64,000 nt of DNA. Origin: Candidatus Zixiibacteriota bacterium. GTDB taxonomy: Bacteria; Zixibacteria; MSB-5A5; GN15; PGXB01. The stretch is from contig JAPLUR010000047.1 in assembly GCA_026397505.1 (NCBI GenBank), positions 11,040-75,039 on the forward strand. The letters are read 5' to 3'. Positions within the stretch are counted from its first letter, which is position 1; the number at the start of each line of letters is the position of its first letter. A program made the position numbers and the translations under genes. A model generated the notes under the pieces. It saw only the letters and a list, made by a program, of their open reading frames with translations, ran no database searches and had not been told where the DNA came from. This document shows, in pieces, positions 1,913-39,660 of this stretch.

Positions 1913-3616
1913 ATGCCTGACAATACCGGAGATTCTTTTCGAGAGACCTCCCAGCCCGAGGGAAGCAATGACCCTCTTGGGATTCTCGGCTGGGTAATCG
2001 GGGGTAAATACAAAATCCGCGCTTATATCGGCGGCGGAGGGTTTGGTGAGGTTTATGAGGGATTCAATGCCAATCTCCCCGAACAGCGTCTGGTCATAAA
2101 ATTCTTTAAGAGAGTACAATCACGGGATAAATTCGCCAAGGAAGCCAAAATTCTCTGCCTTCTGGACCATCCCAATATTCTCCGCGTGATCGATTATCTT
2201 CCAGAGGAAGGGGCTTTGATTGTCCCCTTTATCGATGGCCGTGACGGGGGGAAAACGCTTAAGGAATCAGGCCCCCTGCGGAAGGATCTCTATCTGCGGG
2301 TGGCGCGCACCATGACCGATGCTCTGGCGTATGCCCATGATAAGAAGATTGCGCATCGCGACCTTAAACCGGGGAATATTCTGATCGACAAAAATGAGCA
2401 TATTTTTCTGATCGATTTCGGTATTGCCAAAGAGATGGGCGGCTCGGCGACGAAAACGGCATATGTGGCGCTGACACCTCTCTTCGCGGCACCGGAAAGA
2501 CAACGCGGGGATCAGGACTATAATCCATTTCTGAGCGACATATATGAGATGGGTGTGACTCTGTTCAATTTTGCGACCAACGAGATGCCGTATCGCAATC
2601 CAAGCAATCCCAACTTTCAGGAATGGGGAGGCCCCGCGATAAAAAAGCTCTCGCCGCAATTGCGACGCATTCTCCGCAAAGCAACTCATCCCGACCCGGC
2701 CGAAAGGTACCAGACCGCGGCCCAGATGGCCGAAGAGTTTCGCAGTCTGGAACAGGTCTATGCCCATGCCTCCAAGCCGCGCTATCTGGCCATAGTTGGG
2801 GTGATCTTGCTGATCGCGGTGGCGGCCTTTGTCGCCAAACAGATGTTTACCGGCAGCGGTACGGAGCCGCAGGTTTCCCAGACAACCGCCCAGGAAAAGA
2901 CTAAAGAGGCTCCCAAAATTCCGCCGCCGGAAGAAAAACAGAAACAGGAAATCACGACCCCGGCAAAGAAGACTGAGACGCCTCCCGCGACAACCACCAA
3001 GACAGCGGAGGAGAAAGCCGTTCCGGTTGAAAAGCAGGAGGCGGCCAAAACTGAAACACCACCGGTTCCCCAGCTTCCCTCTCTGCTTGTGCATGTAAAT
3101 CCACAATATAATGTTTCGCTTTTTGTGGACGGCAAGGAACGCAGTCCCGATCGGCGTCTTGAGCTGACCGCAGGAAAACATGAAGTGAAAATTATTCACG
3201 CTGACTTCCCAATCGTGATTGATACTATTGATGTTACCGTTGACCGCAGCGCCGAGTACAATCTGACCGCCCGCTATACCGGAGCCCCCAGCGTCAATTT
3301 CCGCGTCGGCATTTCACCTTCGGAACTGGCCGACAATATCCTGCAGGTGTCCTTCAATGGCAAGAAGTATCAGTACAAAAACGAGGAACTGCCGATTCTG
3401 GACTTCCGCAAAATTGCCGGCACCTGGCAGTTCCGGTTTGATATCTTACCTTCCCGCGGGGGAACCGCGCCTCGAATAGATTCCATAGTCACCTTTCCAT
3501 ACGGCGACGGGCCGCAGGTGCGCTGGAAAGGGACCGGCAGCACAGTAAATTTCGGCGCCGGCGATTGGCGCGACATTGAATCAATAGATATGCTTTTATT
3601 CTGGTCAAATCGTTAA
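1913..3616 (+). CDS. Hanks-type serine/threonine protein kinase with TM segment, Pro/Thr/Lys-rich linker and extracytoplasmic C-terminal (PEGA-like) domain
   Basis: Kinase motifs GGGGFGEVYEG, HRDLKPGNILID, DFGIAKE and APE are present. A hydrophobic helix LAIVGVILLIAVAAFVA follows the catalytic domain. Confidence 0.9.
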   Translation: MPDNTGDSFRETSQPEGSNDPLGILGWVIGGKYKIRAYIGGGGFGEVYEGFNANLPEQRLVIKFFKRVQSRDKFAKEAKILCLLDHPNILRVIDYLPEEGALIVPFIDGRDGGKTLKESGPLRKDLYLRVARTMTDALAYAHDKKIAHRDLKPGNILIDKNEHIFLIDFGIAKEMGGSATKTAYVALTPLFAAPERQRGDQDYNPFLSDIYEMGVTLFNFATNEMPYRNPSNPNFQEWGGPAIKKLSPQLRRILRKATHPDPAERYQTAAQMAEEFRSLEQVYAHASKPRYLAIVGVILLIAVAAFVAKQMFTGSGTEPQVSQTTAQEKTKEAPKIPPPEEKQKQEITTPAKKTETPPATTTKTAEEKAVPVEKQEAAKTETPPVPQLPSLLVHVNPQYNVSLFVDGKERSPDRRLELTAGKHEVKIIHADFPIVIDTIDVTVDRSAEYNLTARYTGAPSVNFRVGISPSELADNILQVSFNGKKYQYKNEELPILDFRKIAGTWQFRFDILPSRGGTAPRIDSIVTFPYGDGPQVRWKGTGSTVNFGAGDWRDIESIDMLLFWSNR

Positions 3617-3640
3617 TTGAATCTTATCTCAGGAGGTTTA

Positions 3641-4327
3641 ATGCAAATCAGGATTCGCTATCTTCGCACGACCGCGTTGATGCTCCTTCTGGCTTACCTT
3701 CAGATGGTGTTTTTCCCCATGTGGGGCTTCGCCCAGACGCCCAATTGCGGCTATGACAGTAAAACGCCAACGCTGGAGCACGCACGCAAGAATTTCAAAG
3801 GCCTCAACTATAGGTGCGCTGAGGCGGAGTTGAATGACCTGCTCGGACTCCCGGAACTGAGCCTGGAAGACAAATCGAATGCGCATATTCTTCTGGCCGC
3901 GGTTTACTACGCCATGCTCAAGGACGACTCGGAAAAGCGCAGTATGGTCATGCAGCAGTTTAAGGCGGCTTTCAAGGCTTACCGCGAGTGGCGGGGTGAG
4001 TTGGATATCAAGTCGCCCGAGTTTGTGGAGATGATGAAAGAGGCCCAGCTTGAGGTAGATACTGAAGCGATTGCAACTCCGCCCACGACCACCGAGCCGG
4101 AAAAGCCGGCCGAGGATACAACCAAAGCCAAGCCGGCGCCGCCTGTTATCGCCGAAACCAAAGCAGCCAAGACCGGCGGTAAAGCGTGGTATAAGCAATG
4201 GTGGGCCATTGGGCTGGGTATCGGTGTAGTTGCCGGGGCCGTTGTTCTTCTCGCAGGAGGCGGCGGCGAAACTACTAAGCCTTTGGACACGCTGCCGACG
4301 TTTCCAAATCCGCCCTCAAAAAGGTGA
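3641..4327 (+). CDS. membrane-anchored hypothetical protein (N-terminal signal/TM, helical domain, PT-rich linker, C-terminal TM)
   Basis: AGGAGG RBS lies 5 nt before the ATG at 3641. The start abuts the kinase stop. C-terminal TM WWAIGLGIGVVAGAVVLLAGGGG. Confidence 0.6.
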   Translation: MQIRIRYLRTTALMLLLAYLQMVFFPMWGFAQTPNCGYDSKTPTLEHARKNFKGLNYRCAEAELNDLLGLPELSLEDKSNAHILLAAVYYAMLKDDSEKRSMVMQQFKAAFKAYREWRGELDIKSPEFVEMMKEAQLEVDTEAIATPPTTTEPEKPAEDTTKAKPAPPVIAETKAAKTGGKAWYKQWWAIGLGIGVVAGAVVLLAGGGGETTKPLDTLPTFPNPPSKR

Positions 4328-4401
4328 TTGGAGAAGGCGAAATGAAATCGGACAGATATCAACGAAATATGCCATATCCCCCAAGGAAAAGGAGTACAAG
4401 A

Positions 4402-5667
4402 ATGAACAGAAAATTCTTTATGGTTTTGGCGGCCATGCTGGCTATCGTGTTTGCTTTGAGTTTTAACGCCGCCGCACAGGTGCCGAATACGATCATGTAT
4501 CAGGGAAGATTAACCGATGCCGCTGGGGCGCCGATTTCCACGGCCACATCGGTTGTGTTTTCAATTTATGCAACCATAGGCGCTGACACCCCGGTCTGGA
4601 CCGAGACCATAGCTGATGTTGCTCCTGATGTTCAAGGGGTGTTTACCGTTGAACTGGGACTTGTGACACCCCTGCCGGCCAATCTTTTTGACGGCACCAA
4701 GAAATATCTGGGCATAAAAGTCGGTGCCGACACCGAAATGAACCCGCGCCAGGTTTTGACCTCCGGGCCGTATTCGCTGAACGCAAATATTGGTGATGGA
4801 ACGGTCACGACCGCTAAGATCGCCAATGGAGCGGTGCTCGACACCAAATTGGGGACCGGTTCGGTGATCGAGTCCAAGATCGCCAACTATGCGGTGACCA
4901 CATTAAAGATACTCGACGGCGCCGTAACGTCGGGGAAGATTGCGGATGGAGCCATAAACAGCGCCAAAATAGCCGACTTGAGTGTTGCCACCATCGACAT
5001 TGCCGACAATGCCATAAATAGTGCCAAAGTGGCTGATGGATCGATCACGACCGCCAAGATTGCGGATGGCACGGTAACCAGCGCCAAAATCGCCGATCTC
5101 AGCATCGGCACAATCGATATTGCAGACAATGCTATAACGGGGGCCAAAGTGGCTAATAGCTCACTCGACCATGGTGATATTGGCGACGAAGCGGGTATTA
5201 GTAGCATTTATGATGGCACCGATAACTCGCTGACAGGTACTGTAGCAGCCGTGGATTCGGTGTCAATCACCTGTCCATCAGGCGGCTACCTTGTGATAGA
5301 AGCAGCGGGGTTTCTCCAAACCTATCATACATTGAACGCCGGCGCGTTTGCACTTCGTGTTTGCCTGTCAACTACTCGGGCATCCATGGATTACACAAAT
5401 TTCGTCTTATATGAAATACCTACTGGTTCTGCGACAGGAACCTATAACGTGCCCTTCACACTATTAATGACAAGCGTTGTTTCGGCAGGTTCTTATAAGT
5501 ACTATCTTAATGCAGATGCTTTTTCAGGTGCGGGATATGTGGCCAGTGGCTCAACCGGTCGGATTCATATCGTGGCGACATATTATCCTTCTGCTTATGG
5601 CAGTGTTGCCAGCACAAATTCACCGGCACCCTTGAAACCAGGAAACTCTGACGGTTCCACCGAGTAA
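4402..5667 (+). CDS. secreted protein with about 11-residue 'xAKIADGAVTS' tandem repeats (fibre/beta-helix-like repeat protein)
   Basis: Signal peptide MNRKFFMVLAAMLAIVFALSFNAAAQ. At least 12 consecutive 11-aa repeats (TAKIANGAVLD/ SKIANYAVTTL/ GKIADGAINSA/ AKIADGTVTSA...). AAGGAG RBS. Overlaps the upstream gene by 4 nt. Confidence 0.75.
   Translation: MNRKFFMVLAAMLAIVFALSFNAAAQVPNTIMYQGRLTDAAGAPISTATSVVFSIYATIGADTPVWTETIADVAPDVQGVFTVELGLVTPLPANLFDGTKKYLGIKVGADTEMNPRQVLTSGPYSLNANIGDGTVTTAKIANGAVLDTKLGTGSVIESKIANYAVTTLKILDGAVTSGKIADGAINSAKIADLSVATIDIADNAINSAKVADGSITTAKIADGTVTSAKIADLSIGTIDIADNAITGAKVANSSLDHGDIGDEAGISSIYDGTDNSLTGTVAAVDSVSITCPSGGYLVIEAAGFLQTYHTLNAGAFALRVCLSTTRASMDYTNFVLYEIPTGSATGTYNVPFTLLMTSVVSAGSYKYYLNADAFSGAGYVASGSTGRIHIVATYYPSAYGSVASTNSPAPLKPGNSDGSTE
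4807..5180 (+). repeat. 33-bp (11-codon) tandem repeats inside CDS 4402..5667, with a 99-bp higher-order repeat
   Basis: Recurrent aaaatcgccgatgg[ca]gc[cg]gt... units. nt 4960-5040 resembles 5080-5160. Confidence 0.8.
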
Positions 5668-5688
5668 CCTGAAAGAAGGGAAGGTCCA

Positions 5689-7578
5689 ATGAAAGTGCCA
5701 AATAAAGCCATGGCGCTGGTGCTCTGCCTGCTCTTTCTTTCCGGCAGTGTATGGGCACAGACTAGCGCCAATTATATATTGCAGGTTGGCGGGCCGGTGG
5801 GTGGTGGCGGCAGTGCCGGCAGCAGCGGGTATAATGTAACCGGCGATGTCCCATTAAGTGCCTCGGGCGGCTCCGGTTCGAGTAATTATACGATTGTGGG
5901 AGGAATTCTCGGCGCCGCATACCGTGGCGCGGCCTCCTTTTCGGCCATGTACACAGGCAGTGATGAGGAAACCGTTAACATTGCCGCTCGGACTTTGAAA
6001 GTAGCTTACAGCGGTGGTACCGGTGCAGTCGCGGGCGTATTTTATTATCGTCTGGGCGGTGATGAGTCTTATTCCAGCGCCGGTATGACAGCAGGTACCG
6101 GGGACACCATGCTTTACATCCTGCCGGCCAACTCTCTTACTATCCGCGGTCTGGAGTACTATTTCGAACTGACGCGCAATTCTATTATGGTGTCGCTCCG
6201 ACATCCAATAGCCCCATATGTCTTTATCACCCGGTTTGATAATACCGTGGGAAAAAGGCCGACCGCTATGCCGAACGCCCAATATCGAATTATCGGGGTT
6301 CCGATCGGCTTTTCAACGCGGCAGTCGGTTGATGATGTTTTCCTCGATGATCTCGGCGCCGCCGACAAGAAACAATGGCGGCTGGCCAACTATGACAATA
6401 CGACCGGGACATATCTGGAGTATCCCGATGCATCTATTGTCACTCCCACCCGGGGATACTGGCTGATTGCCCGGGGCGGTAAGAAATACGGCGCCGCCGG
6501 ATTCTCTATGCGGCCGAATACGTCTCTTCCTATCCCCGGTGGAATCGGCTGCTACGAAGTGGCGGTAGACTCCGGCTGGAACCTTGTGGCCAATCCTTTT
6601 CCATTCAATATCAGTTGGGCAGATGTACGGTTTAAGGATAATGATGTTCTGCAGGATGGCCATCCCGCATCAGTTCTTGATGATTTCGCATACTGGTATT
6701 CGGGAACGGCTTATAGTAATGTCGCCACAATTCCGGCATGGGATGGGTTTTTCGTGAAAATCAACAAACGCAACATCAAAATTCTATTCCCATATCGCGT
6801 AAGCGGTATTACTCTGATTGACAAACTATTTGCGGGCATGCCATCGGCCGGGGGAACCGCCGGGGCATGGGATATCCAGTTGCAGTTGGCTGTCGGGGAT
6901 CGTCTGGATGACTGCAATTTTGCCGGAGTAAGAGGTGATGCCTCAACGGGGCCAGACGTATATGATTATTCCGAACCGCCGCCTGCGCCTGAAGGTCCGA
7001 TGCTTGCCTTCCGCCTCCCGGACGGCGATAAAGGTTTGCACCGTGCTGATTATCGCGCCCCGTTCAGTGACGGCGCGACCTGGGATATTACCATGCTGCC
7101 GATGCCGGGGCGTGTCCTGACCCCCGGCGGACTAGGACAGATTCCGGAAGGTATGGAGGCATGGCTGGTTTTGGACAACGGAGCCAAATATAAATTGACC
7201 GAGGGTGACGCGATAGGCATCCCCGATGGAGTAAAGTCGGGCCGGTTGCTGGTTGGAACGGAGAAATATCTCGACGAAGAGGACTCTATTTTGATTCCTT
7301 ATAATTATGCCCTTTTCCAGAATTTCCCCAATCCGTTCAACCCGTCGACAAGTATCAGATTCGCTCTGCCGAAAAGCGGTAAGGTCAGACTGGAGGTTTT
7401 TAATCTCCTTGGCCAGAAAGTGAAAACTTTGATTGACGGCGAACTCGAGGCCGGGTATCACAGCGTTTTGTGGGATGGTAACGATAGTCACGGCAAAGCG
7501 GCAGCCACCGGCGTATATTTCTATAAGATGACCGCCGGCGCTTTTTCCGAGAATCGCAAGATGCTGCTTCTGAAATAG
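5689..7578 (+). CDS. secreted protein with T9SS (Por) C-terminal sorting domain
   Basis: Signal peptide MKVPNKAMALVLCLLFLSGSVWAQ. C-terminus FQNFPNPFNPSTSIRFALPKSGKVRLEVFNLLGQKV...GVYFYKMTAGAFSENRKMLLLK matches the T9SS type-A CTD consensus. Confidence 0.85.
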   Translation: MKVPNKAMALVLCLLFLSGSVWAQTSANYILQVGGPVGGGGSAGSSGYNVTGDVPLSASGGSGSSNYTIVGGILGAAYRGAASFSAMYTGSDEETVNIAARTLKVAYSGGTGAVAGVFYYRLGGDESYSSAGMTAGTGDTMLYILPANSLTIRGLEYYFELTRNSIMVSLRHPIAPYVFITRFDNTVGKRPTAMPNAQYRIIGVPIGFSTRQSVDDVFLDDLGAADKKQWRLANYDNTTGTYLEYPDASIVTPTRGYWLIARGGKKYGAAGFSMRPNTSLPIPGGIGCYEVAVDSGWNLVANPFPFNISWADVRFKDNDVLQDGHPASVLDDFAYWYSGTAYSNVATIPAWDGFFVKINKRNIKILFPYRVSGITLIDKLFAGMPSAGGTAGAWDIQLQLAVGDRLDDCNFAGVRGDASTGPDVYDYSEPPPAPEGPMLAFRLPDGDKGLHRADYRAPFSDGATWDITMLPMPGRVLTPGGLGQIPEGMEAWLVLDNGAKYKLTEGDAIGIPDGVKSGRLLVGTEKYLDEEDSILIPYNYALFQNFPNPFNPSTSIRFALPKSGKVRLEVFNLLGQKVKTLIDGELEAGYHSVLWDGNDSHGKAAATGVYFYKMTAGAFSENRKMLLLK

Positions 7579-37120: not shown

Positions 37121-39316
37121 CTATTTTAGAAGCAGCATTTTGCGGGTCTCAGAAAATTCACCCGCTACAATTCTATAAAGATAGATGCCTGTTGAGACCG
37201 ACTGACCGTCCTTGCTTCGACCGTTCCAAACAACTTGATAAGTACCGGGCGAAAACTCATGGTCAACCAATCTGGCTATTTCGGCACCCAGCAGGTTATA
37301 AACTGCAACGGTGACATGAGATCTTTGGGGAACAGCGAATCCAATTGTTGTGGCCGGGTTGAACGGATTTGGATGGTTCTGAAACAGTGCGAAATCCTCA
37401 GGCAATTTGCCGGTGTATATATCAGATATGTCTGTGTAGGTGTTCGGGCCCGACCAGCCACTGGGGCCACAAGCGTTGAAGGATCTAACACGCCACCACA
37501 AATCGCCGCCTGGCACAGTGAGTTGTACGCTGCAAGAGCTGATAGTTGTGTCCTTCCACAAGTGCAGAAAGCTTGAAGCACTAGTATCTATCTGGAGACT
37601 GTAACCAGAGGCTTGTGAGACACACTGCCAGATGAACGATAAGACGACAGGACCGTGTGCGCCACTGCTTGGAATCATGCTTCCGGGATTCGGATTTGCC
37701 GGAATCGTGATGATCGTCACGCAAATCTGGTTGCTGAGGTTGCTTGCCCCACAGCTGTTTTTCGCCAGAACATAGTAGCAGTAAGATCCCCCTGAGGCCT
37801 TAGTATAGCATCGCTGCGTTACGTTACCAATGTCCGTCCAGCCGCCACCATTCTCCTGAATCTCGTAACTGGTCGCACCCGCAACCGCACCCCACGATAT
37901 ACAATACTGAACATTCGTACACCCGGACGCAGGCCCCGTAATGAACGGTGGCAGAGGAACAGGATCCACCGTCACGCAATGCTGGTTACTGGAATTACTT
38001 TGTCCACAGCTGTTTTTCGCCCGAACATAGTAGCAATAAGATCCCCCTGAGGCCTTAGTATAGCATCGCTGCGTTACGTTACCAATGTCCGTCCAGCCTC
38101 CACCATTCTCCTGAATCTCGTAACTGGTCGCACCCGCAACCGCACCCCACGATATACAATACTGAACATTCGTACACCCGGACGCAGGCCCCGTGATGAC
38201 CGGCGGAATAGGAGGGGGCAAGGGGGAACAACATGACTGCGACGATTTGCTGGAATTGTAGTAACAGCCGTATTGAGCATCAACCTGATAGCAGTGCGAC
38301 CCGCCGGAGTAGTCATTGTATGGCGGACTGAATGTACCTAAGGTTCCGCCGTCCCGGTAGAGGGTATAGCCAGTCGCTCCGGTGACCGTATTCCAATTAA
38401 TGCTCACATAACCACATTGCGGAGTACAACTGACTATGGGAACATCTTTTGTATATTCCGCAACATACGTGGCTCCCTGACTCGCAGAGATATCGATCCA
38501 CTGGTCCATGGTAAGGAGGTTACAGACATCCCACCAACCTAGAAACGTCCTTCCCAAGGCGGGGTTTGAAGCTGCTATCCTGACCGATGCACCTTGGCTA
38601 TAGCGAAAAGTGGCAGGTGTGTAACCGCCGGATTTTCCATCAGCGTCGGATGGAGTTACGAAGACGTACACGCCATTCTCTGGTACACTGATTACACTAA
38701 AAGTAACATTTTGGGGAGGAGTAGTCACCACAACCAATGTCTCTGGGAATGATGACGATTGCCTTGATCTCAACTCGGCGATGCCCGTGGTATATTCGGT
38801 TATCGGTCTAATCTCGAAGCCATTGTTGCTTTGGCTACCAGTTACCCAGTTCTTGATGTCATAGAAGTTTGGCGCGTCGACTTGTATGTCGCTCCATCCC
38901 GGTAAAAGCGTTGACTGGCCGAGTACTACGGAAGCGCTAGGCTGATTATTCCAGGTTATGGTATATTCGTCCCACGCAGCCGAGACCAAGAGAATATAGG
39001 ATGACTGGTTGGGATTCGACCCTGCATTGTAAATCTTCAATCTGGCATCTGTTATATATGGTGCTTCTCCTGAAGGAATTACTGACAGATCGAATTTTAA
39101 GAACGATCGCAGCCGACCATTATTGACATCGTAGCCCACAAGAAGGGCGATACCACCACCATCATTGGTATTGGGGTATTTGATGGAAACATCGGCGTCA
39201 GCGACCGACAAAAGCCTGTAAGTTGTCGCGTGCACCTGCATTGTCAATCCAGGCAAAAACAGGAAACTTACAAGAACCAAGAGACCAATTTTGGTCGAAC
39301 GTGAACAACATTGCAT
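37121..39316 (-). CDS. secreted FN3-like repeat protein with T9SS C-terminal sorting domain
   Basis: GGAG RBS before the ATG at 39316. Signal peptide. Two near-identical 85-aa repeats. C-terminus FQNHPNPFNPATTIGFAVP...GIYLYRIVAGEFSETRKMLLLK. Confidence 0.8.
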   Translation of the reverse strand: MQCCSRSTKIGLLVLVSFLFLPGLTMQVHATTYRLLSVADADVSIKYPNTNDGGGIALLVGYDVNNGRLRSFLKFDLSVIPSGEAPYITDARLKIYNAGSNPNQSSYILLVSAAWDEYTITWNNQPSASVVLGQSTLLPGWSDIQVDAPNFYDIKNWVTGSQSNNGFEIRPITEYTTGIAELRSRQSSSFPETLVVVTTPPQNVTFSVISVPENGVYVFVTPSDADGKSGGYTPATFRYSQGASVRIAASNPALGRTFLGWWDVCNLLTMDQWIDISASQGATYVAEYTKDVPIVSCTPQCGYVSINWNTVTGATGYTLYRDGGTLGTFSPPYNDYSGGSHCYQVDAQYGCYYNSSKSSQSCCSPLPPPIPPVITGPASGCTNVQYCISWGAVAGATSYEIQENGGGWTDIGNVTQRCYTKASGGSYCYYVRAKNSCGQSNSSNQHCVTVDPVPLPPFITGPASGCTNVQYCISWGAVAGATSYEIQENGGGWTDIGNVTQRCYTKASGGSYCYYVLAKNSCGASNLSNQICVTIITIPANPNPGSMIPSSGAHGPVVLSFIWQCVSQASGYSLQIDTSASSFLHLWKDTTISSCSVQLTVPGGDLWWRVRSFNACGPSGWSGPNTYTDISDIYTGKLPEDFALFQNHPNPFNPATTIGFAVPQRSHVTVAVYNLLGAEIARLVDHEFSPGTYQVVWNGRSKDGQSVSTGIYLYRIVAGEFSETRKMLLLK
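37750..38195 (-). repeat. near-identical about 255-bp tandem duplication inside T9SS cargo gene (two 85-aa FN3-like modules)
   Basis: About 190-nt blocks from 37750 and from 38003 are identical except a handful of substitutions. Confidence 0.85.
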
Positions 39317-39660
39317 TTGACTCTCCTTTCCAACGTGCTCCAAACCATGACACGTTACCTTATGCCAATGACATTCCGATATTAGGTTCGTAGACGCCAT
39401 ATATACCGTTCAGCATTGGGCTATTCTGTTAACAGATTGTGAGATGTTATCTACAAGTCAGGCTTAAAGACCCCGAGATCGGAAACGGATTCATCTTGCA
39501 GTTTCATCCCGGTTCGTTTAAACATATCCTCTGAACTGTCTAAGTTAGGCCGCGCTTTGCCTAATGTCAAGCGCTTTTCGATATAATTCTCTCCTTATCC
39601 TGAGTGTTTCTGTCTTGATTCGCTCCCGTTGCTCCAGGATTTAGGTTGATCAGTATGAAT

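What the first reader, a model, noticed from the sequence alone, without database searches (positions are those of the whole stretch)
4402..5667. Secreted protein built from perfect 11-residue 'AKIADGAVTS' repeats, encoded by 33-bp tandem DNA repeats
The sequence shows at least 12 uninterrupted 11-aa units with a higher-order 33-aa repeat. This periodicity is reminiscent of phage tail-fibre and beta-helix repeats, but here it sits in a chromosomal protein with a Sec signal and no T9SS tag. The repeat DNA is prone to slipped-strand expansion and contraction, which would give length variation.
Basis: seen in the sequence. Interest (0 to 1): 0.5.

Follow-up and report, generated by a model that had tools for sequence, protein, structure and literature searches.

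The report
Secreted fibre adhesin with swappable head
The repeat protein is a small, secreted, phage-tail-fibre-like adhesin of an uncultured Zixibacteria bacterium, related to the "mosaic adhesive trimer" fibres of Bdellovibrio; its repeat is a 10-residue shaft motif, not a perfect 11-residue one, and its receptor-binding head has been exchanged between closely related strains.

Summary
The gene (4402-5667, +, 421 aa) is real and identical to a hypothetical protein of a candidate division Zixibacteria MAG. It is 14 imperfect 10-residue units (30 bp; consensus K-[IL]-A-D-G-A-[VI]-T-[TS]-A) at aa 129-268. Its higher-order unit is a 40-aa/120-bp duplication. There is no signal at 11 aa or 33 bp, and no two units are identical.

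The protein has four parts:
- a Sec signal peptide;
- a roughly 100-aa beta-rich N-domain, homologous to the N-domain of Bdellovibrio mosaic adhesive trimer (MAT) fibres (hhalign probability 96.7%);
- the decapeptide shaft, shared with true Bdellovibrio MATs and many phage tail fibres;
- a C-terminal TNF/C1q-like jelly-roll head, a fold whose known members are homotrimers.

The three modules recombine freely among homologues, which carry 0-37 repeat units. A strain 97-98% identical upstream carries an unalignable head; the junction lies inside the repeat array.

The gene sits in a conserved four-gene cassette found in at least 15 Zixibacteria/Ignavibacteria loci: Ser/Thr kinase, membrane protein, fibre, T9SS-sorted Ig-like protein. 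Slipped-strand variation is not supported.

Verdict: a new member of a known kind, in an undescribed conserved gene context. Trimer state, surface display and ligand are inferred.

The parts
4390..4394 (+). Shine-Dalgarno-like AGGAG, 7 nt upstream of the ATG
   Evidence: Read directly from the sequence. The ATG at 4402 matches the NCBI protein start and the family alignment.
4402..4476 (+). Sec-type signal peptide (aa 1-25, MNRKFFMVLAAMLAIVFALSFNAAAQ)
   Evidence: Sequence features. AF2 predicts a helix at aa 2-23. The position is conserved in the family. Relative P0062 is named 'exported' by its source. No signal-peptide predictor was available.
4477..4785 (+). Beta-rich N-terminal domain (aa 26-128), MAT-N-like; presumed cell-proximal anchor
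   Evidence: AF2 pLDDT is about 88-92. hhalign against Bdellovibrio MAT N-domains gives probability 96.7%, E = 4.3e-10 over 101/103 columns. NCBIfam Bdello_MAT_N scores E = 3.6e-7, below its cut-off. There are 22,512 cluster representatives with E <= 1e-3, nearly all starting at residue 20-30.
4567..4680 (+). Short divergent tract inside the N-domain relative to the near-identical strain L023
   Evidence: 27/114 nt differ, with dS 0.91 and dN 0.14, against dS 0-0.08 in the flanks. This is the signature of a conversion tract, not of positive selection.
4786..5205 (+). Array of 14 imperfect decapeptide (30-bp) repeats, aa 129-268; presumed fibre shaft
   Evidence: The family consensus is K-[IL]-A-D-G-A-[VI]-T-[TS]-A, with spacing of exactly 10 in 1929 successive unit pairs. 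PHROG tail-fibre hits. The same repeat occurs in true Bdellovibrio MAT proteins.
4915..5154 (+). Two copies of a 120-bp (40-aa, four-unit) higher-order block
   Evidence: TRF reports 4936-5154, period 120, 78% matches. The copies share 89/120 nt and 29/40 aa. Strain L023 has a single hybrid block here.
5206..5604 (+). C-terminal head domain (aa 269-about 400), TNF/C1q-like jelly roll; presumed trimerising, ligand-binding tip
   Evidence: AF2 pLDDT is about 90. Foldseek against PDB finds Pgp3, BxpB/ExsF, the BC2L-C N-terminal lectin (TM 0.64), PLTL lectin (TM 0.68), a cyanophage short-tail-fibre CBD, TNF, EDA and C1q. Viral fibre heads match too. No sequence-level family was found.
5605..5667 (+). 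Disordered C-terminal tail (aa 401-421) and stop codon
   Evidence: pLDDT below 50 for aa 405-421.
4936..5775 (+). Segment replaced relative to strain L023: distal repeats, head, intergenic spacer and the signal-peptide codons of the next gene
   Evidence: Identity is 97% up to about 4935. It is 81% with dS 0.98 for 4936-5037. It is at random level from about 5040 to about 5770, then about 95% again.
1913..3616 (+). Cassette gene 1: transmembrane Ser/Thr protein kinase with an extracytoplasmic C-terminal domain
   Evidence: Pkinase E = 6e-38. It is syntenic with the fibre in L001-L005, L007-L009, L011, L015, L023 and L027.
3617..4327 (+). Cassette gene 2: 236-aa protein with an N-terminal signal/TM segment, a helical domain, a Pro/Thr-rich linker and a C-terminal TM helix
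   Evidence: Sequence. No family hit. Conserved synteny.
5689..7578 (+). Cassette gene 4: T9SS-sorted multi-beta-sandwich surface protein, 21 nt downstream of the fibre gene
   Evidence: FlgD_ig / Por_Secre_tail C-terminal domain. The AF2 model has pLDDT 84.5 and only generic Ig-like multi-domain matches. About 70 orthologues, named Zixibacteria where a name is given. It is adjacent to the fibre gene in at least 15 loci.

Best explanation
The gene encodes a Sec-exported fibre protein that most likely assembles as a homotrimer. It belongs to the same superfamily as the Bdellovibrio mosaic adhesive trimer (MAT) fibres and is related to phage tail fibres. It has three modules: a conserved beta-rich N-domain placed directly after the signal peptide (the presumed cell-proximal attachment module), a shaft of 14 decapeptide repeats that sets the length, and a TNF/C1q-like jelly-roll head that trimerises and presumably binds a ligand, most likely a surface glycan.

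Shaft length and head type are varied by recombination, and the repeat array serves as a crossover site. As a result, closely related strains carry unrelated heads.

Shown here: the module boundaries, the homology of the N-domain and the repeat to MATs and phage fibres, the fold of the head on a confident model, the modular reshuffling, the strain-level head replacement, and the conserved four-gene context.

Inferred: trimer formation, the fold of the shaft, surface display, ligand binding, and any functional link to the kinase or the T9SS-sorted neighbour.
For: Architecture: the AF2 model has confident N (aa 31-119) and C (aa 265-400) domains and a low-confidence repeat region as a monomer.

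N-domain: hhalign against four Bdellovibrio N-domains gives probability 96.7%, E = 4.3e-10 and full-length coverage. Those Bdellovibrio proteins hit NCBIfam Bdello_MAT_N at about 1e-50 and carry the same decapeptide repeat (E about 1e-35).

The MAT definition was taken from PMC10769870: a signal peptide, a conserved beta-rich N-domain, an intertwined trimeric fibre and swappable tips, including TNF-like ones.

Head: Foldseek hits are almost all TNF/C1q-superfamily homotrimers, including the lectin 2WQ4 that the MAT paper cites as the best match for Bd2734. There are 557 viral hits, dominated by fibre and J proteins.

Shaft: it matches PHROG tail-fibre families. It co-occurs with T7 tail-fibre N-domains and S74 chaperones, both of which belong to trimeric fibres.

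Mosaicism: of 120 homologues, 51 share the N-domain, 117 the repeat and 25 the C-domain. Three have N plus C with no repeat. Units per protein range from 0 to 37. Head classes are incongruent with N-domain similarity.

Strain L023: the kinase is 99.5% identical in protein and the TM protein 99.1%, but the fibre only 59%. Nucleotide identity collapses between about 4936/5040 and about 5775.

Context: the window is chromosomal and housekeeping, and synteny is conserved.
Against: No multimer prediction or experiment was possible, so the trimer and the shaft fold rest on analogy.

The N-domain match to the curated NCBIfam model is below its cut-off (30 bits against 60) and covers only the first half of that model.

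The head has no sequence-level relative among solved structures or Pfam families, so the fold assignment depends on one AF2 model built from 25 sequences.

The protein has no recognisable outer-membrane translocation or anchoring signal, so surface display is unproven. The same gap exists for the Bdellovibrio MATs.

At 421 aa it is far shorter than the roughly 1000-aa Bdellovibrio fibres. It also lacks their beta-helix domains and capping-loop motif; the motif was not searched for.
Confidence: 0.7

Rival explanations
1. The repeat folds on its own as a monomeric beta-solenoid (a divergent pentapeptide-repeat or beta-roll-like helix), and the protein is a monomeric secreted protein.
For: The unit has hydrophobic residues at positions 2 and 7, and small residues two positions before each. 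This is a pentapeptide-like i/i-2 pattern. Some homologues give weak, sub-threshold hits to pentapeptide families such as HetL, Qnr and Pentapeptide_4. A two-unit (20-aa) alternation, which would equal one coil of a quadrilateral helix, is visible here (z = 13.9 against 9.4 at lag 10). It is weakly visible family-wide (0.494 against 0.444).
Against: The window protein has no pentapeptide hit at E <= 1. The AF2 monomer model gives no regular solenoid and pLDDT of 40-70 in the repeat. The array ends in a TNF/C1q-like head, whose known members are homotrimers. The same repeat sits in T7-type and S74-type fibres, which are trimers. The lag-30 signal family-wide is about as strong as lag 20 or 40.
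Confidence: 0.1
2. The protein is a trimeric TNF-like lectin or effector that is released from the cell, as Chlamydia Pgp3 is, rather than a fibre anchored on the producer's surface.
For: The best structural matches include secreted Pgp3 (4jdm, 6gjt). There is only a Sec signal and no lipobox, T9SS domain or barrel anchor.
Against: The N-domain is conserved far better than the rest (47-90% identity against 25-50% for the head). It is always placed directly after the signal peptide, as expected for a docking module. In Bdellovibrio the homologous fibres were shown on the cell surface (PMC10769870). The fibre gene is tightly linked to a T9SS-anchored surface protein.
Confidence: 0.13
3. It is a phage tail-fibre gene, either a prophage remnant or a gene recently acquired from a phage.
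For: There are strong PHROG tail-fibre matches on the repeat, viral structural matches to the head, and a slightly lower GC content in the head region (0.46-0.47 against 0.51-0.57).
Against: It has a Sec signal peptide and no virion-attachment domain. The neighbours are a kinase, a membrane protein, a T9SS cargo protein and Nramp. The rest of the 64-kb window is housekeeping (aconitase, PFOR, CcmF, histidine kinases). The four-gene cassette is conserved in at least 15 loci with differing flanks.
Confidence: 0.03
4. The repeat region is a contingency locus that varies by slipped-strand mispairing, or it is a collapsed or expanded assembly artefact.
For: Copy number differs between relatives. 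A related contig (L025) ends exactly at the start of the 120-bp blocks.
Against: The units are only 49% identical at the DNA level, the 120-bp blocks are 74% identical, and the longest exact repeat is 14 nt. An independent metagenome contig reproduces nt 4402-4935 at about 97-100% identity, apart from a 114-nt divergent tract at 4567-4680. Both head versions are in frame and typical of the family.
Confidence: 0.03

Closest known systems
Bdellovibrio bacteriovorus mosaic adhesive trimer (MAT) fibres (Caulton et al. 2024, PMC10769870; NCBIfam NF053851 Bdello_MAT_N)
   Same: Both have a signal peptide followed directly by a homologous beta-rich N-domain. The same decapeptide repeat is present in true Bdellovibrio MAT-N proteins. 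Both have variable, exchangeable C-terminal tips, including TNF-like ones. Neither has a known outer-membrane export or anchor signal.
   Different: This protein is 421 aa, against about 1000. Its N-domain lacks an insertion of about 33 aa and scores below the curated cut-off. It has no S74 chaperone and no beta-helix domains were detected. It comes from a non-predatory candidate phylum. It is embedded in a conserved kinase, TM protein, fibre, T9SS-cargo cassette that is not described for Bdellovibrio.
Phage tail fibres and central fibres carrying the same repeat (PHROG 28766, 892, 21412, 7660; T7-type fibres such as cyanophage P-SCSP1u gp28, PDB 8i4m; Legionella phage LME-1 orf16, PDB 9eg4)
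   Same: The decapeptide shaft repeat is shared. So are the modular exchange of distal receptor-binding parts and the C1q/TNF-like heads seen in many viral fibres.
   Different: This protein has no virion-attachment domain. It carries a Sec signal and a cellular N-domain and sits in a chromosomal housekeeping context. In the cited cryo-EM studies the distal fibre parts were not modelled, so no solved structure of the repeat could be identified.
TNF/C1q-like bacterial trimers: the BC2L-C N-terminal lectin (2WQ4), Photorhabdus PLTL (9IB7), Chlamydia Pgp3 (4JDM), Bacillus BxpB/ExsF (8D02, 9H3D)
   Same: The head has the same fold (Foldseek probability 1.0; target-normalised TM 0.57-0.68). In Pgp3 the TNF-like domain likewise caps the C-terminal end of an elongated trimeric protein.
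   Different: There is no sequence similarity. The ligand is unknown. The stalk is a decapeptide repeat, not a coiled coil or collagen.
Pentapeptide-repeat proteins (Rfr fold; Qnr, HetL, MfpA)
   Same: Both show a five-residue alternation of a hydrophobic core residue and a small i-2 residue. Homologues give weak, sub-threshold profile hits.
   Different: The window protein has no hit, no monomeric quadrilateral helix was predicted, and the context is that of a trimeric fibre.
Trimeric autotransporter adhesins (YadA-like)
   Same: Both are repeat-rich trimeric surface fibres with adhesive heads. One homologue carries the source's own label 'trimeric autotransporter adhesin' (P0089).
   Different: There is no C-terminal beta-barrel translocator or anchor and no YadA head or stalk motifs. 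The polarity is opposite: here the head is C-terminal and the presumed anchor is N-terminal.

Membership tests
MAT (mosaic adhesive trimer) superfamily | Sec signal peptide immediately followed by the conserved beta-rich N-domain | tested here: met
   Signal-peptide features are at aa 1-25 and the domain starts at aa 26. The same placement is seen in nearly all of the best 150 N-domain relatives.
MAT (mosaic adhesive trimer) superfamily | N-domain homologous to the Bdellovibrio MAT N-domain | tested here: met
   hhalign of a 51-sequence family profile against 4 Bdellovibrio N-domains gives probability 96.7%, E = 4.3e-10 and 101/103 columns, with an insertion of about 33 aa in Bdellovibrio.
NCBIfam NF053851 Bdello_MAT_N (the curated subfamily model) | Score at or above the curated cut-off of 60 bits | tested here: not met
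   The score is 30.1 bits, E = 3.6e-7, and covers model positions 3-76 of 162 only. Close relatives score 22-37 bits. The protein is therefore a superfamily relative, not a member of the Bdellovibrio subfamily.
MAT (mosaic adhesive trimer) superfamily | Intertwined homotrimeric fibre | not testable with these tools
   Only monomer prediction is available. The monomer model leaves the shaft unstructured. The trimer is inferred from the TNF-like head and from trimeric fibres that share the repeat.
MAT (mosaic adhesive trimer) superfamily | Variable, exchangeable C-terminal tip on a conserved N-terminal part | tested here: met
   Module counts are 51 (N), 117 (repeat) and 25 (C) of 120 homologues. 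The head is replaced in a near-identical strain. Head classes are incongruent with N-domain similarity.
MAT (mosaic adhesive trimer) superfamily | Display on the cell surface | not testable with these tools
   This needs localisation experiments. No export or anchor signal beyond Sec was found.
MAT S74 subgroup / S74-terminated phage fibres | C-terminal Peptidase_S74 intramolecular chaperone | tested here: not met
   The window protein has no PF13884 hit. The domain is present in the repeat-sharing homologues P0040 and P0053. This protein would be a non-S74 type.
TNF/C1q-like jelly-roll superfamily | Ten-stranded jelly-roll fold of about 130-150 aa | tested here: met
   The AF2 model of aa 265-400 has pLDDT of about 90. 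Nearly all top Foldseek PDB hits are TNF/C1q-superfamily members, with probability 1.0 and TM up to 0.68.
TNF/C1q-like jelly-roll superfamily | Sequence-level membership (Pfam TNF or C1q, or a PDB sequence relative) | tested here: not met
   There is no Pfam hit. A profile of 22 heads finds no solved relative.
Pentapeptide-repeat proteins | Match to pentapeptide profiles, and a monomeric right-handed quadrilateral beta-helix | tested here: not met
   The window protein has no pentapeptide family at E <= 1. The AF2 monomer shows no solenoid in aa 123-260. Only sub-threshold hits occur in some homologues.
Phage tail fibre | Shaft repeat shared with annotated tail-fibre families | tested here: met
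   phrog_28766 E = 1.9e-31, phrog_892 E = 8.8e-23, and others.
Phage tail fibre | Virion-attachment domain and phage genomic context | tested here: not met
   No such domain was found. The neighbours and the rest of the window are cellular.
T9SS cargo | C-terminal sorting domain (Por_Secre_tail / FlgD_ig type) | tested here: not met
   It is absent from the fibre and present in the next gene, 5689-7578.
Slipped-strand contingency locus | Near-perfect short tandem DNA repeats | tested here: not met
   TRF finds no 30- or 33-bp array. Units are 49% identical at the nucleotide level and the longest exact repeat is 14 nt.

The most novel reading that the evidence does not exclude
The four genes together form a surface recognition apparatus that is conserved across Zixibacteria-type genomes and has not been described. 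The genes are a transmembrane Ser/Thr kinase, a bitopic membrane protein, the MAT-like fibre and a T9SS-anchored Ig-like protein. In this reading the hypervariable TNF-headed fibre docks through its conserved N-domain onto the T9SS-anchored protein, which would identify the missing 'surface element' that MAT N-domains bind. Ligand engagement would then be reported to the kinase. Head cassettes would be shuffled between strains by recombination within the decapeptide array, giving strain-specific recognition of cells, particles or prey. The repeated proximity of PAAR and T6SS genes would fit a contact-dependent function.
Probability: 0.15. Interest if true: 0.65.

Novelty: new member of a known kind. 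Interest (0 to 1): 0.4.

Why it matters
MAT fibres were described in 2024 as the prey-recognition adhesins of one predatory genus. This locus shows the same building plan in a candidate phylum with no cultured members: a signal peptide, a conserved N-domain, a decapeptide shaft and a swappable trimeric head.

The N-domain has no Pfam family, yet it recovers about 22,500 sequence clusters. Tail-fibre-like cellular adhesins may therefore be a widespread and under-annotated class of bacterial surface protein.

The comparison with a closely related strain gives a concrete example of head exchange with a junction in the repeat array. This suggests what the repeats are good for, besides setting length.

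The tight linkage to a T9SS-sorted surface protein and a Ser/Thr kinase offers a testable candidate for how such fibres are attached, which is still unknown for Bdellovibrio.

Tried and rejected
- An 11-aa/33-bp period was rejected by autocorrelation and by TRF.
- A direct sequence search of the whole protein against PDB gave only chance-level hits.
- A homologue search with the head domain alone returned nothing, although the parent protein is in the database. This is a limit of the word-index method and cost one capped search.
- The profile of 22 heads against PDB sequences and Pfam gave only noise.
- A repeat-profile search of PDB found three phage proteins (9eg4 orf16, 8i4m gp28, 7z4b). 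The two papers read say the distal fibre or decoration parts were not modelled, so no template for the shaft was obtained.
It was repeated with 10 close N-domains.
- The fold search of the neighbouring T9SS protein gave only generic multi-Ig matches with TM of about 0.1.
- PADLOC gave only generic kinase-domain matches, so there is no evidence for a defence system.
- The supplementary tables of the MAT paper listing non-Bdellovibrio relatives were not among the files held as text.
- Literature searches for 'DUF5907', and for Zixibacteria plus type IX secretion, found nothing.
- A first dN/dS run used a wrong fixed offset, because of a 3-nt indel at about 4258. It was discarded and redone on an alignment.
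Full report
**1. The observation**

The ORF starts at ATG 4402, preceded by AGGAG at 4390-4394, and stops at 5665-5667. The ORF lister offers an upstream GTG at 4324. The ATG start gives a 421-aa product identical over its full length to NCBI protein NT002_03760 of a candidate division Zixibacteria MAG (P0001), and it matches the start of the family alignment.

- Cutting aa 129-268 into tens gives 14 units in register: NIGDGTVTTA, KIANGAVLDT, KLGTGSVIES, KIANYAVTTL, KILDGAVTSG, KIADGAINSA, KIADLSVATI, DIADNAINSA, KVADGSITTA, KIADGTVTSA, KIADLSIGTI, DIADNAITGA, KVANSSLDHG, DIGDEAGISS.
- Residue autocorrelation against 2000 shuffles gives z = 9.4, 13.9, 10.4 and 13.1 at lags 10, 20, 30 and 40. 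At lag 11 z is -2.7 and at lag 33 it is 0.7.
- DNA autocorrelation peaks at 30, 60, 90 and 120 nt and is at background at 33 nt.
- No two units are identical. Mean pairwise identity is 37% (aa) and 49% (nt).
- The only tandem array that TRF reports in the whole 64-kb window is 4936-5154, with period 120, 1.8 copies and 78% matches. It corresponds to two four-unit blocks (4915-5034 and 5035-5154; 89/120 nt and 29/40 aa identical).
- The longest exact direct DNA repeat is 14 nt.

The "perfect 11-residue / 33-bp" description is therefore wrong. The existence of a strong, uninterrupted peptide repeat in a signal-peptide-bearing protein without a T9SS tag is right.

**2. Anatomy of the protein**

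Pfam finds no family for this protein (best hit Phage_Tail_Tip, E = 0.054). An AlphaFold2 monomer model built on 25 family members (alignment A1) shows four segments:
- aa 2-23, a helix (the signal peptide);
- aa 31-119, a beta-rich domain with pLDDT of about 88-92;
- aa 123-260, pLDDT 40-70 with no regular secondary structure;
- aa 265-400, a beta-sandwich with pLDDT of about 90, followed by a disordered tail.

*(a) N-domain.* NCBIfam gives a sub-threshold hit to NF053851 Bdello_MAT_N, "mosaic adhesive trimer family chimeric fiber protein" (E = 3.6e-7, 30 bits against a cut-off of 60, aa 16-89). Four Bdellovibrio proteins recovered through the repeat (P0050, P0087, P0090, P0119) hit that model at about 1e-50. 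A profile of 51 N-domains from this family aligns to those four with hhalign probability 96.7% and E = 4.3e-10 over 101 of 103 columns. The Bdellovibrio versions carry an insertion of about 33 residues. A full phmmer scan of 1.84 billion cluster representatives with aa 26-128 finds 22,512 at E <= 1e-3 and 5,088 at E <= 1e-10. In almost all of the best 150 the domain starts at residue 20-30, directly after a signal peptide. A scan of one genome per species finds the domain in MAGs labelled Zixibacteria, Ignavibacteria, Polyangiaceae, Geobacteraceae, Elusimicrobia and (one) Patescibacteria.

*(b) Repeat.* Across the 120 best homologues I extracted 2,192 units. The consensus is K-[IL]-A-D-G-A-[VI]-T-[TS]-A. 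The spacing is exactly 10 in 1,929 successive pairs. Copies per protein range from 0 to 37. The repeat matches PHROG tail-fibre families (phrog_28766 E = 1.9e-31, phrog_892 E = 8.8e-23, and others). In other proteins it is combined with a T7 tail-fibre N-domain, Prophage_tail, the Peptidase_S74 chaperone, right-handed beta-helix or Kelch propeller domains. A repeat profile finds three solved phage proteins: Legionella phage LME-1 orf16 in the capsid entry 9eg4, cyanophage P-SCSP1u fibre gp28, and a tail-tip fibre in 7z4b. The two papers read state that the distal parts were not modelled. I therefore found no experimental structure for this motif.

*(c) Head.* Foldseek of the model against PDB returns almost only TNF/C1q-superfamily trimers. 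These include Chlamydia Pgp3, Bacillus BxpB/ExsF, the Burkholderia BC2L-C N-terminal lectin (2WQ4, target-normalised TM 0.64), Photorhabdus PLTL (TM 0.68), the cyanophage A-1(L) short-tail-fibre CBD, the lactococcal phage 1358 RBP, TNF-alpha, EDA, 4-1BBL and C1q. Against predicted viral structures there are 557 hits at E <= 1e-3. They are dominated by tail fibres, host-specificity protein J, minor tail proteins and collagen-like or C1q-headed proteins. At the sequence level the head has no relative in PDB or Pfam. The similarity is at the level of fold only.

**3. Comparison with the MAT definition**

Caulton et al. 2024 (PMC10769870) define MATs as follows:
- an intertwined trimeric fibre;
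- exchangeable C-terminal tips, either S74-terminated or non-S74. The non-S74 tips include TNF-like domains (Bd2439 and Bd2734, the latter best matched by 2WQ4) and a C-type lectin.

The authors showed surface localisation and glycan binding. [quoted passage not shown]

The window protein meets every feature that could be tested here at the superfamily level. It fails only the curated score of the Bdellovibrio-specific NCBIfam model. It is much smaller, and no beta-helix or S74 domains were detected.

**4. Mosaicism and the role of the repeat**

Of the 120 best homologues, 51 share the N-domain, 117 the repeat and 25 the head. P0004, P0044 and P0062 have N plus head with essentially no repeat.

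The clearest evidence is locus L023 (JGI sample 3300032401; protein P0002).
- Its kinase is 99.5% identical to the window's at the protein level, its TM protein 99.1% and its T9SS protein 91%. The fibre is only 59% identical.
- Nucleotide identity is about 97-100% from 1949 to about 4935.
- From 4936 to 5037 it is 81% (dS 0.98).
- It is at random level from about 5040 to about 5770, and about 95% again from about 5780.

The replaced segment therefore starts inside the repeat array, at the first 120-bp block. It contains the distal shaft, the whole head, the spacer and the signal-peptide codons of the next gene. L023 carries a single block that looks like a hybrid of the window's two blocks.

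Background divergence is dS 0.037 for the kinase, 0.10 for the TM gene and 0.05 for repeats 4786-4935. The T9SS gene has dS 0.26, so the right flank is itself more diverged than the left. A second short tract in the N-domain (4567-4680) has 27 differences in 114 nt, with dS 0.91 and dN/dS 0.15. That is the signature of gene conversion rather than positive selection.

Head classes are incongruent with N-domain relatedness. The two N-domains are each other's best match (90%). This window's head is closest to those of P0003 and P0004 (47-50%), while P0002's head is closest to those of P0010, P0024 and P0058 (39-43%). In the next-closest locus (L001) the kinase and TM protein are 87% and 91% identical, but the repeat is 53% and the head 47%.

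It arises through recombination and cassette exchange, not through slippage of near-identical units.

**5. Genomic context**

The gene order is: Ser/Thr kinase (1913-3616), a 236-aa membrane protein (3617-4327), the fibre (4402-5667), and a T9SS-sorted protein (5689-7578). Gaps between them are 0, 74 and 21 nt, and there is no convincing internal terminator.
- The complete four-gene order is seen in the window and in L002-L005 (L004 is the same contig as L017), L007, L008, L011, L015, L023 and L027.
- L013 has TM protein, fibre and cargo. L014 and L020 have fibre and cargo on short contigs. In L001 and L009 the contig ends right after the fibre gene.
- Several of these loci have different flanking genes.
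- In L006 the T9SS gene lies directly upstream of the fibre, next to T6SS genes for TssL and TssM.

Fibres with the same N-domain in other phyla, and a second copy in one Zixibacteria genome (L010, whose T9SS gene is elsewhere, at L026), lack the cassette. So the linkage is strong but not absolute.

The T9SS protein has about 70 orthologues at 40-51% identity, all labelled Zixibacteria where a name is given, apart from one 'Patescibacteria group' MAG label (P0150). It has no Pfam domain besides the sorting domain. It models confidently (pLDDT 84.5) as a chain of beta-sandwich domains behind a low-confidence Gly/Ser-rich N-terminus. It gives only generic Ig-like matches.

The rest of the window is housekeeping: Nramp, aconitase, CcmF, a sigma-54 activator, histidine kinases and PFOR. 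That excludes a prophage.

**6. Most likely mechanism**

The protein is exported by Sec and trimerises through its TNF-like head, which acts as the C-terminal registration point as in other fibres. The three chains then form a thin shaft from the 14 decapeptides. The conserved N-domain holds the fibre on an envelope component, and the head binds a ligand, most likely a glycan.

Module boundaries, homologies, the head fold on the model, mosaicism and synteny are shown. Trimerisation, the shaft fold, surface exposure, the ligand and any coupling to the kinase or the T9SS protein are inferred. I put 0.7 on the core statement (a MAT-superfamily trimeric fibre adhesin with an exchangeable head). 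I put about 0.15 on the stronger reading, that the cassette is a dedicated recognition apparatus with the T9SS protein as anchor.

**7. Rivals**

*A monomeric pentapeptide-like solenoid.* The i/i+5 hydrophobic pattern fits it, as do weak pentapeptide hits in some homologues and a two-unit alternation. Against it are the unstructured AF2 monomer, the absence of any pentapeptide hit for this protein, and the trimeric company the repeat keeps.

*A released Pgp3-like lectin.* This cannot be excluded. It differs from the main explanation only in whether the fibre is anchored.

*Prophage origin, slippage or misassembly.* All are contradicted by context, by the DNA divergence of the units and by an independent contig.

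**8. Verdict**

This is an ordinary member of a recently recognised and very widespread kind of protein, not a new kind. It is worth recording for three things:
- the correct description of the repeat as a decapeptide shaft motif shared between cellular and phage fibres, with no solved structure;
- a clean natural example of head exchange with its junction in the repeat array;
- the conserved kinase / membrane protein / fibre / T9SS-protein cassette, which is a testable lead to the unknown anchoring of such fibres.

Noticed in passing
window 1913-7578; loci L001-L009, L011, L013-L015, L020, L023, L027: A conserved gene order is found in at least 15 Zixibacteria/Ignavibacteria-labelled loci, several with different flanking genes: transmembrane Ser/Thr kinase, a membrane protein of about 220-240 aa, the fibre, and a T9SS-sorted protein of about 620-880 aa. 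I found no description of this cassette in the literature searches made here.
   Followed up: partly
L002 1169-2230 (-), L004 2051-3211 (-), L027 1084-2157 (-), L006 1-3852 (+): PAAR-motif genes lie divergently upstream of the cassette in three loci. T6SS genes for TssL (DotU) and TssM (IcmF) lie directly upstream in a fourth. No PAAR gene was found in the first 735 nt of the window. The linkage may be chance.
   Followed up: partly
window 4567-4680: A 114-nt tract inside the otherwise near-identical N-domain differs at 27 positions from strain L023 (dS 0.91, dN/dS 0.15). It looks like a short gene-conversion tract from a divergent allele.
   Followed up: yes
L025 (contig Ga0315295_10061232), contig end = window position 4915: A second metagenome contig of the L023 strain ends exactly where the 120-bp repeat blocks begin. 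This is consistent with an assembly break at a repeat or at a point of strain heterogeneity.
   Followed up: no
window 4477-4785 (N-domain) and proteins P0217, P0236, P0242, P0251, P0278: The N-domain has no Pfam family, yet it matches 22,512 cluster representatives. A few long proteins carry 3-4 copies of it, not only at the N-terminus.
   Followed up: no
L018 3779-5575 and 6309-9047 (Geobacteraceae MAG): Two fibre genes with the same N-domain (599 and 913 aa) lie next to each other. This is a small MAT-like repertoire outside Bdellovibrio.
   Followed up: no
window 4894-5160 (aa 165-253); PDB 9eg4 chain H: The decapeptide repeat also occurs in orf16 of Legionella phage LME-1, a chain of the capsid entry 9eg4 and probably the head decoration protein. 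It gives a weak hit to the defence-candidate protein PD-Lambda-5_A (E = 2e-6).
   Followed up: no
window 5746-5931 (aa 20-81 of the T9SS protein): A Gly/Ser-rich N-terminal segment with repeated S-x-N-Y motifs is conserved in about 70 orthologues but modelled with pLDDT below 50. It is a candidate interaction or disordered tether region.
   Followed up: no
window 3617-4327: The C-terminal TM region of the 236-aa cassette protein gives a chance-level hit (E = 0.11) to the NCBIfam 'lipo-invert putative C-terminal anchoring domain'. No other family matches.
   Followed up: no
window 37121-39400 (-): This is another protein with a FlgD_ig-type C-terminal domain, this one carrying a CBM96 carbohydrate-binding module. 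It suggests the organism uses this type of sorting domain widely.
   Followed up: no
window 5250-5700: The head-coding region has the lowest GC content of the cassette (0.46-0.47, against 0.51-0.57 in the flanks). This fits import from elsewhere but is weak on its own.
   Followed up: no
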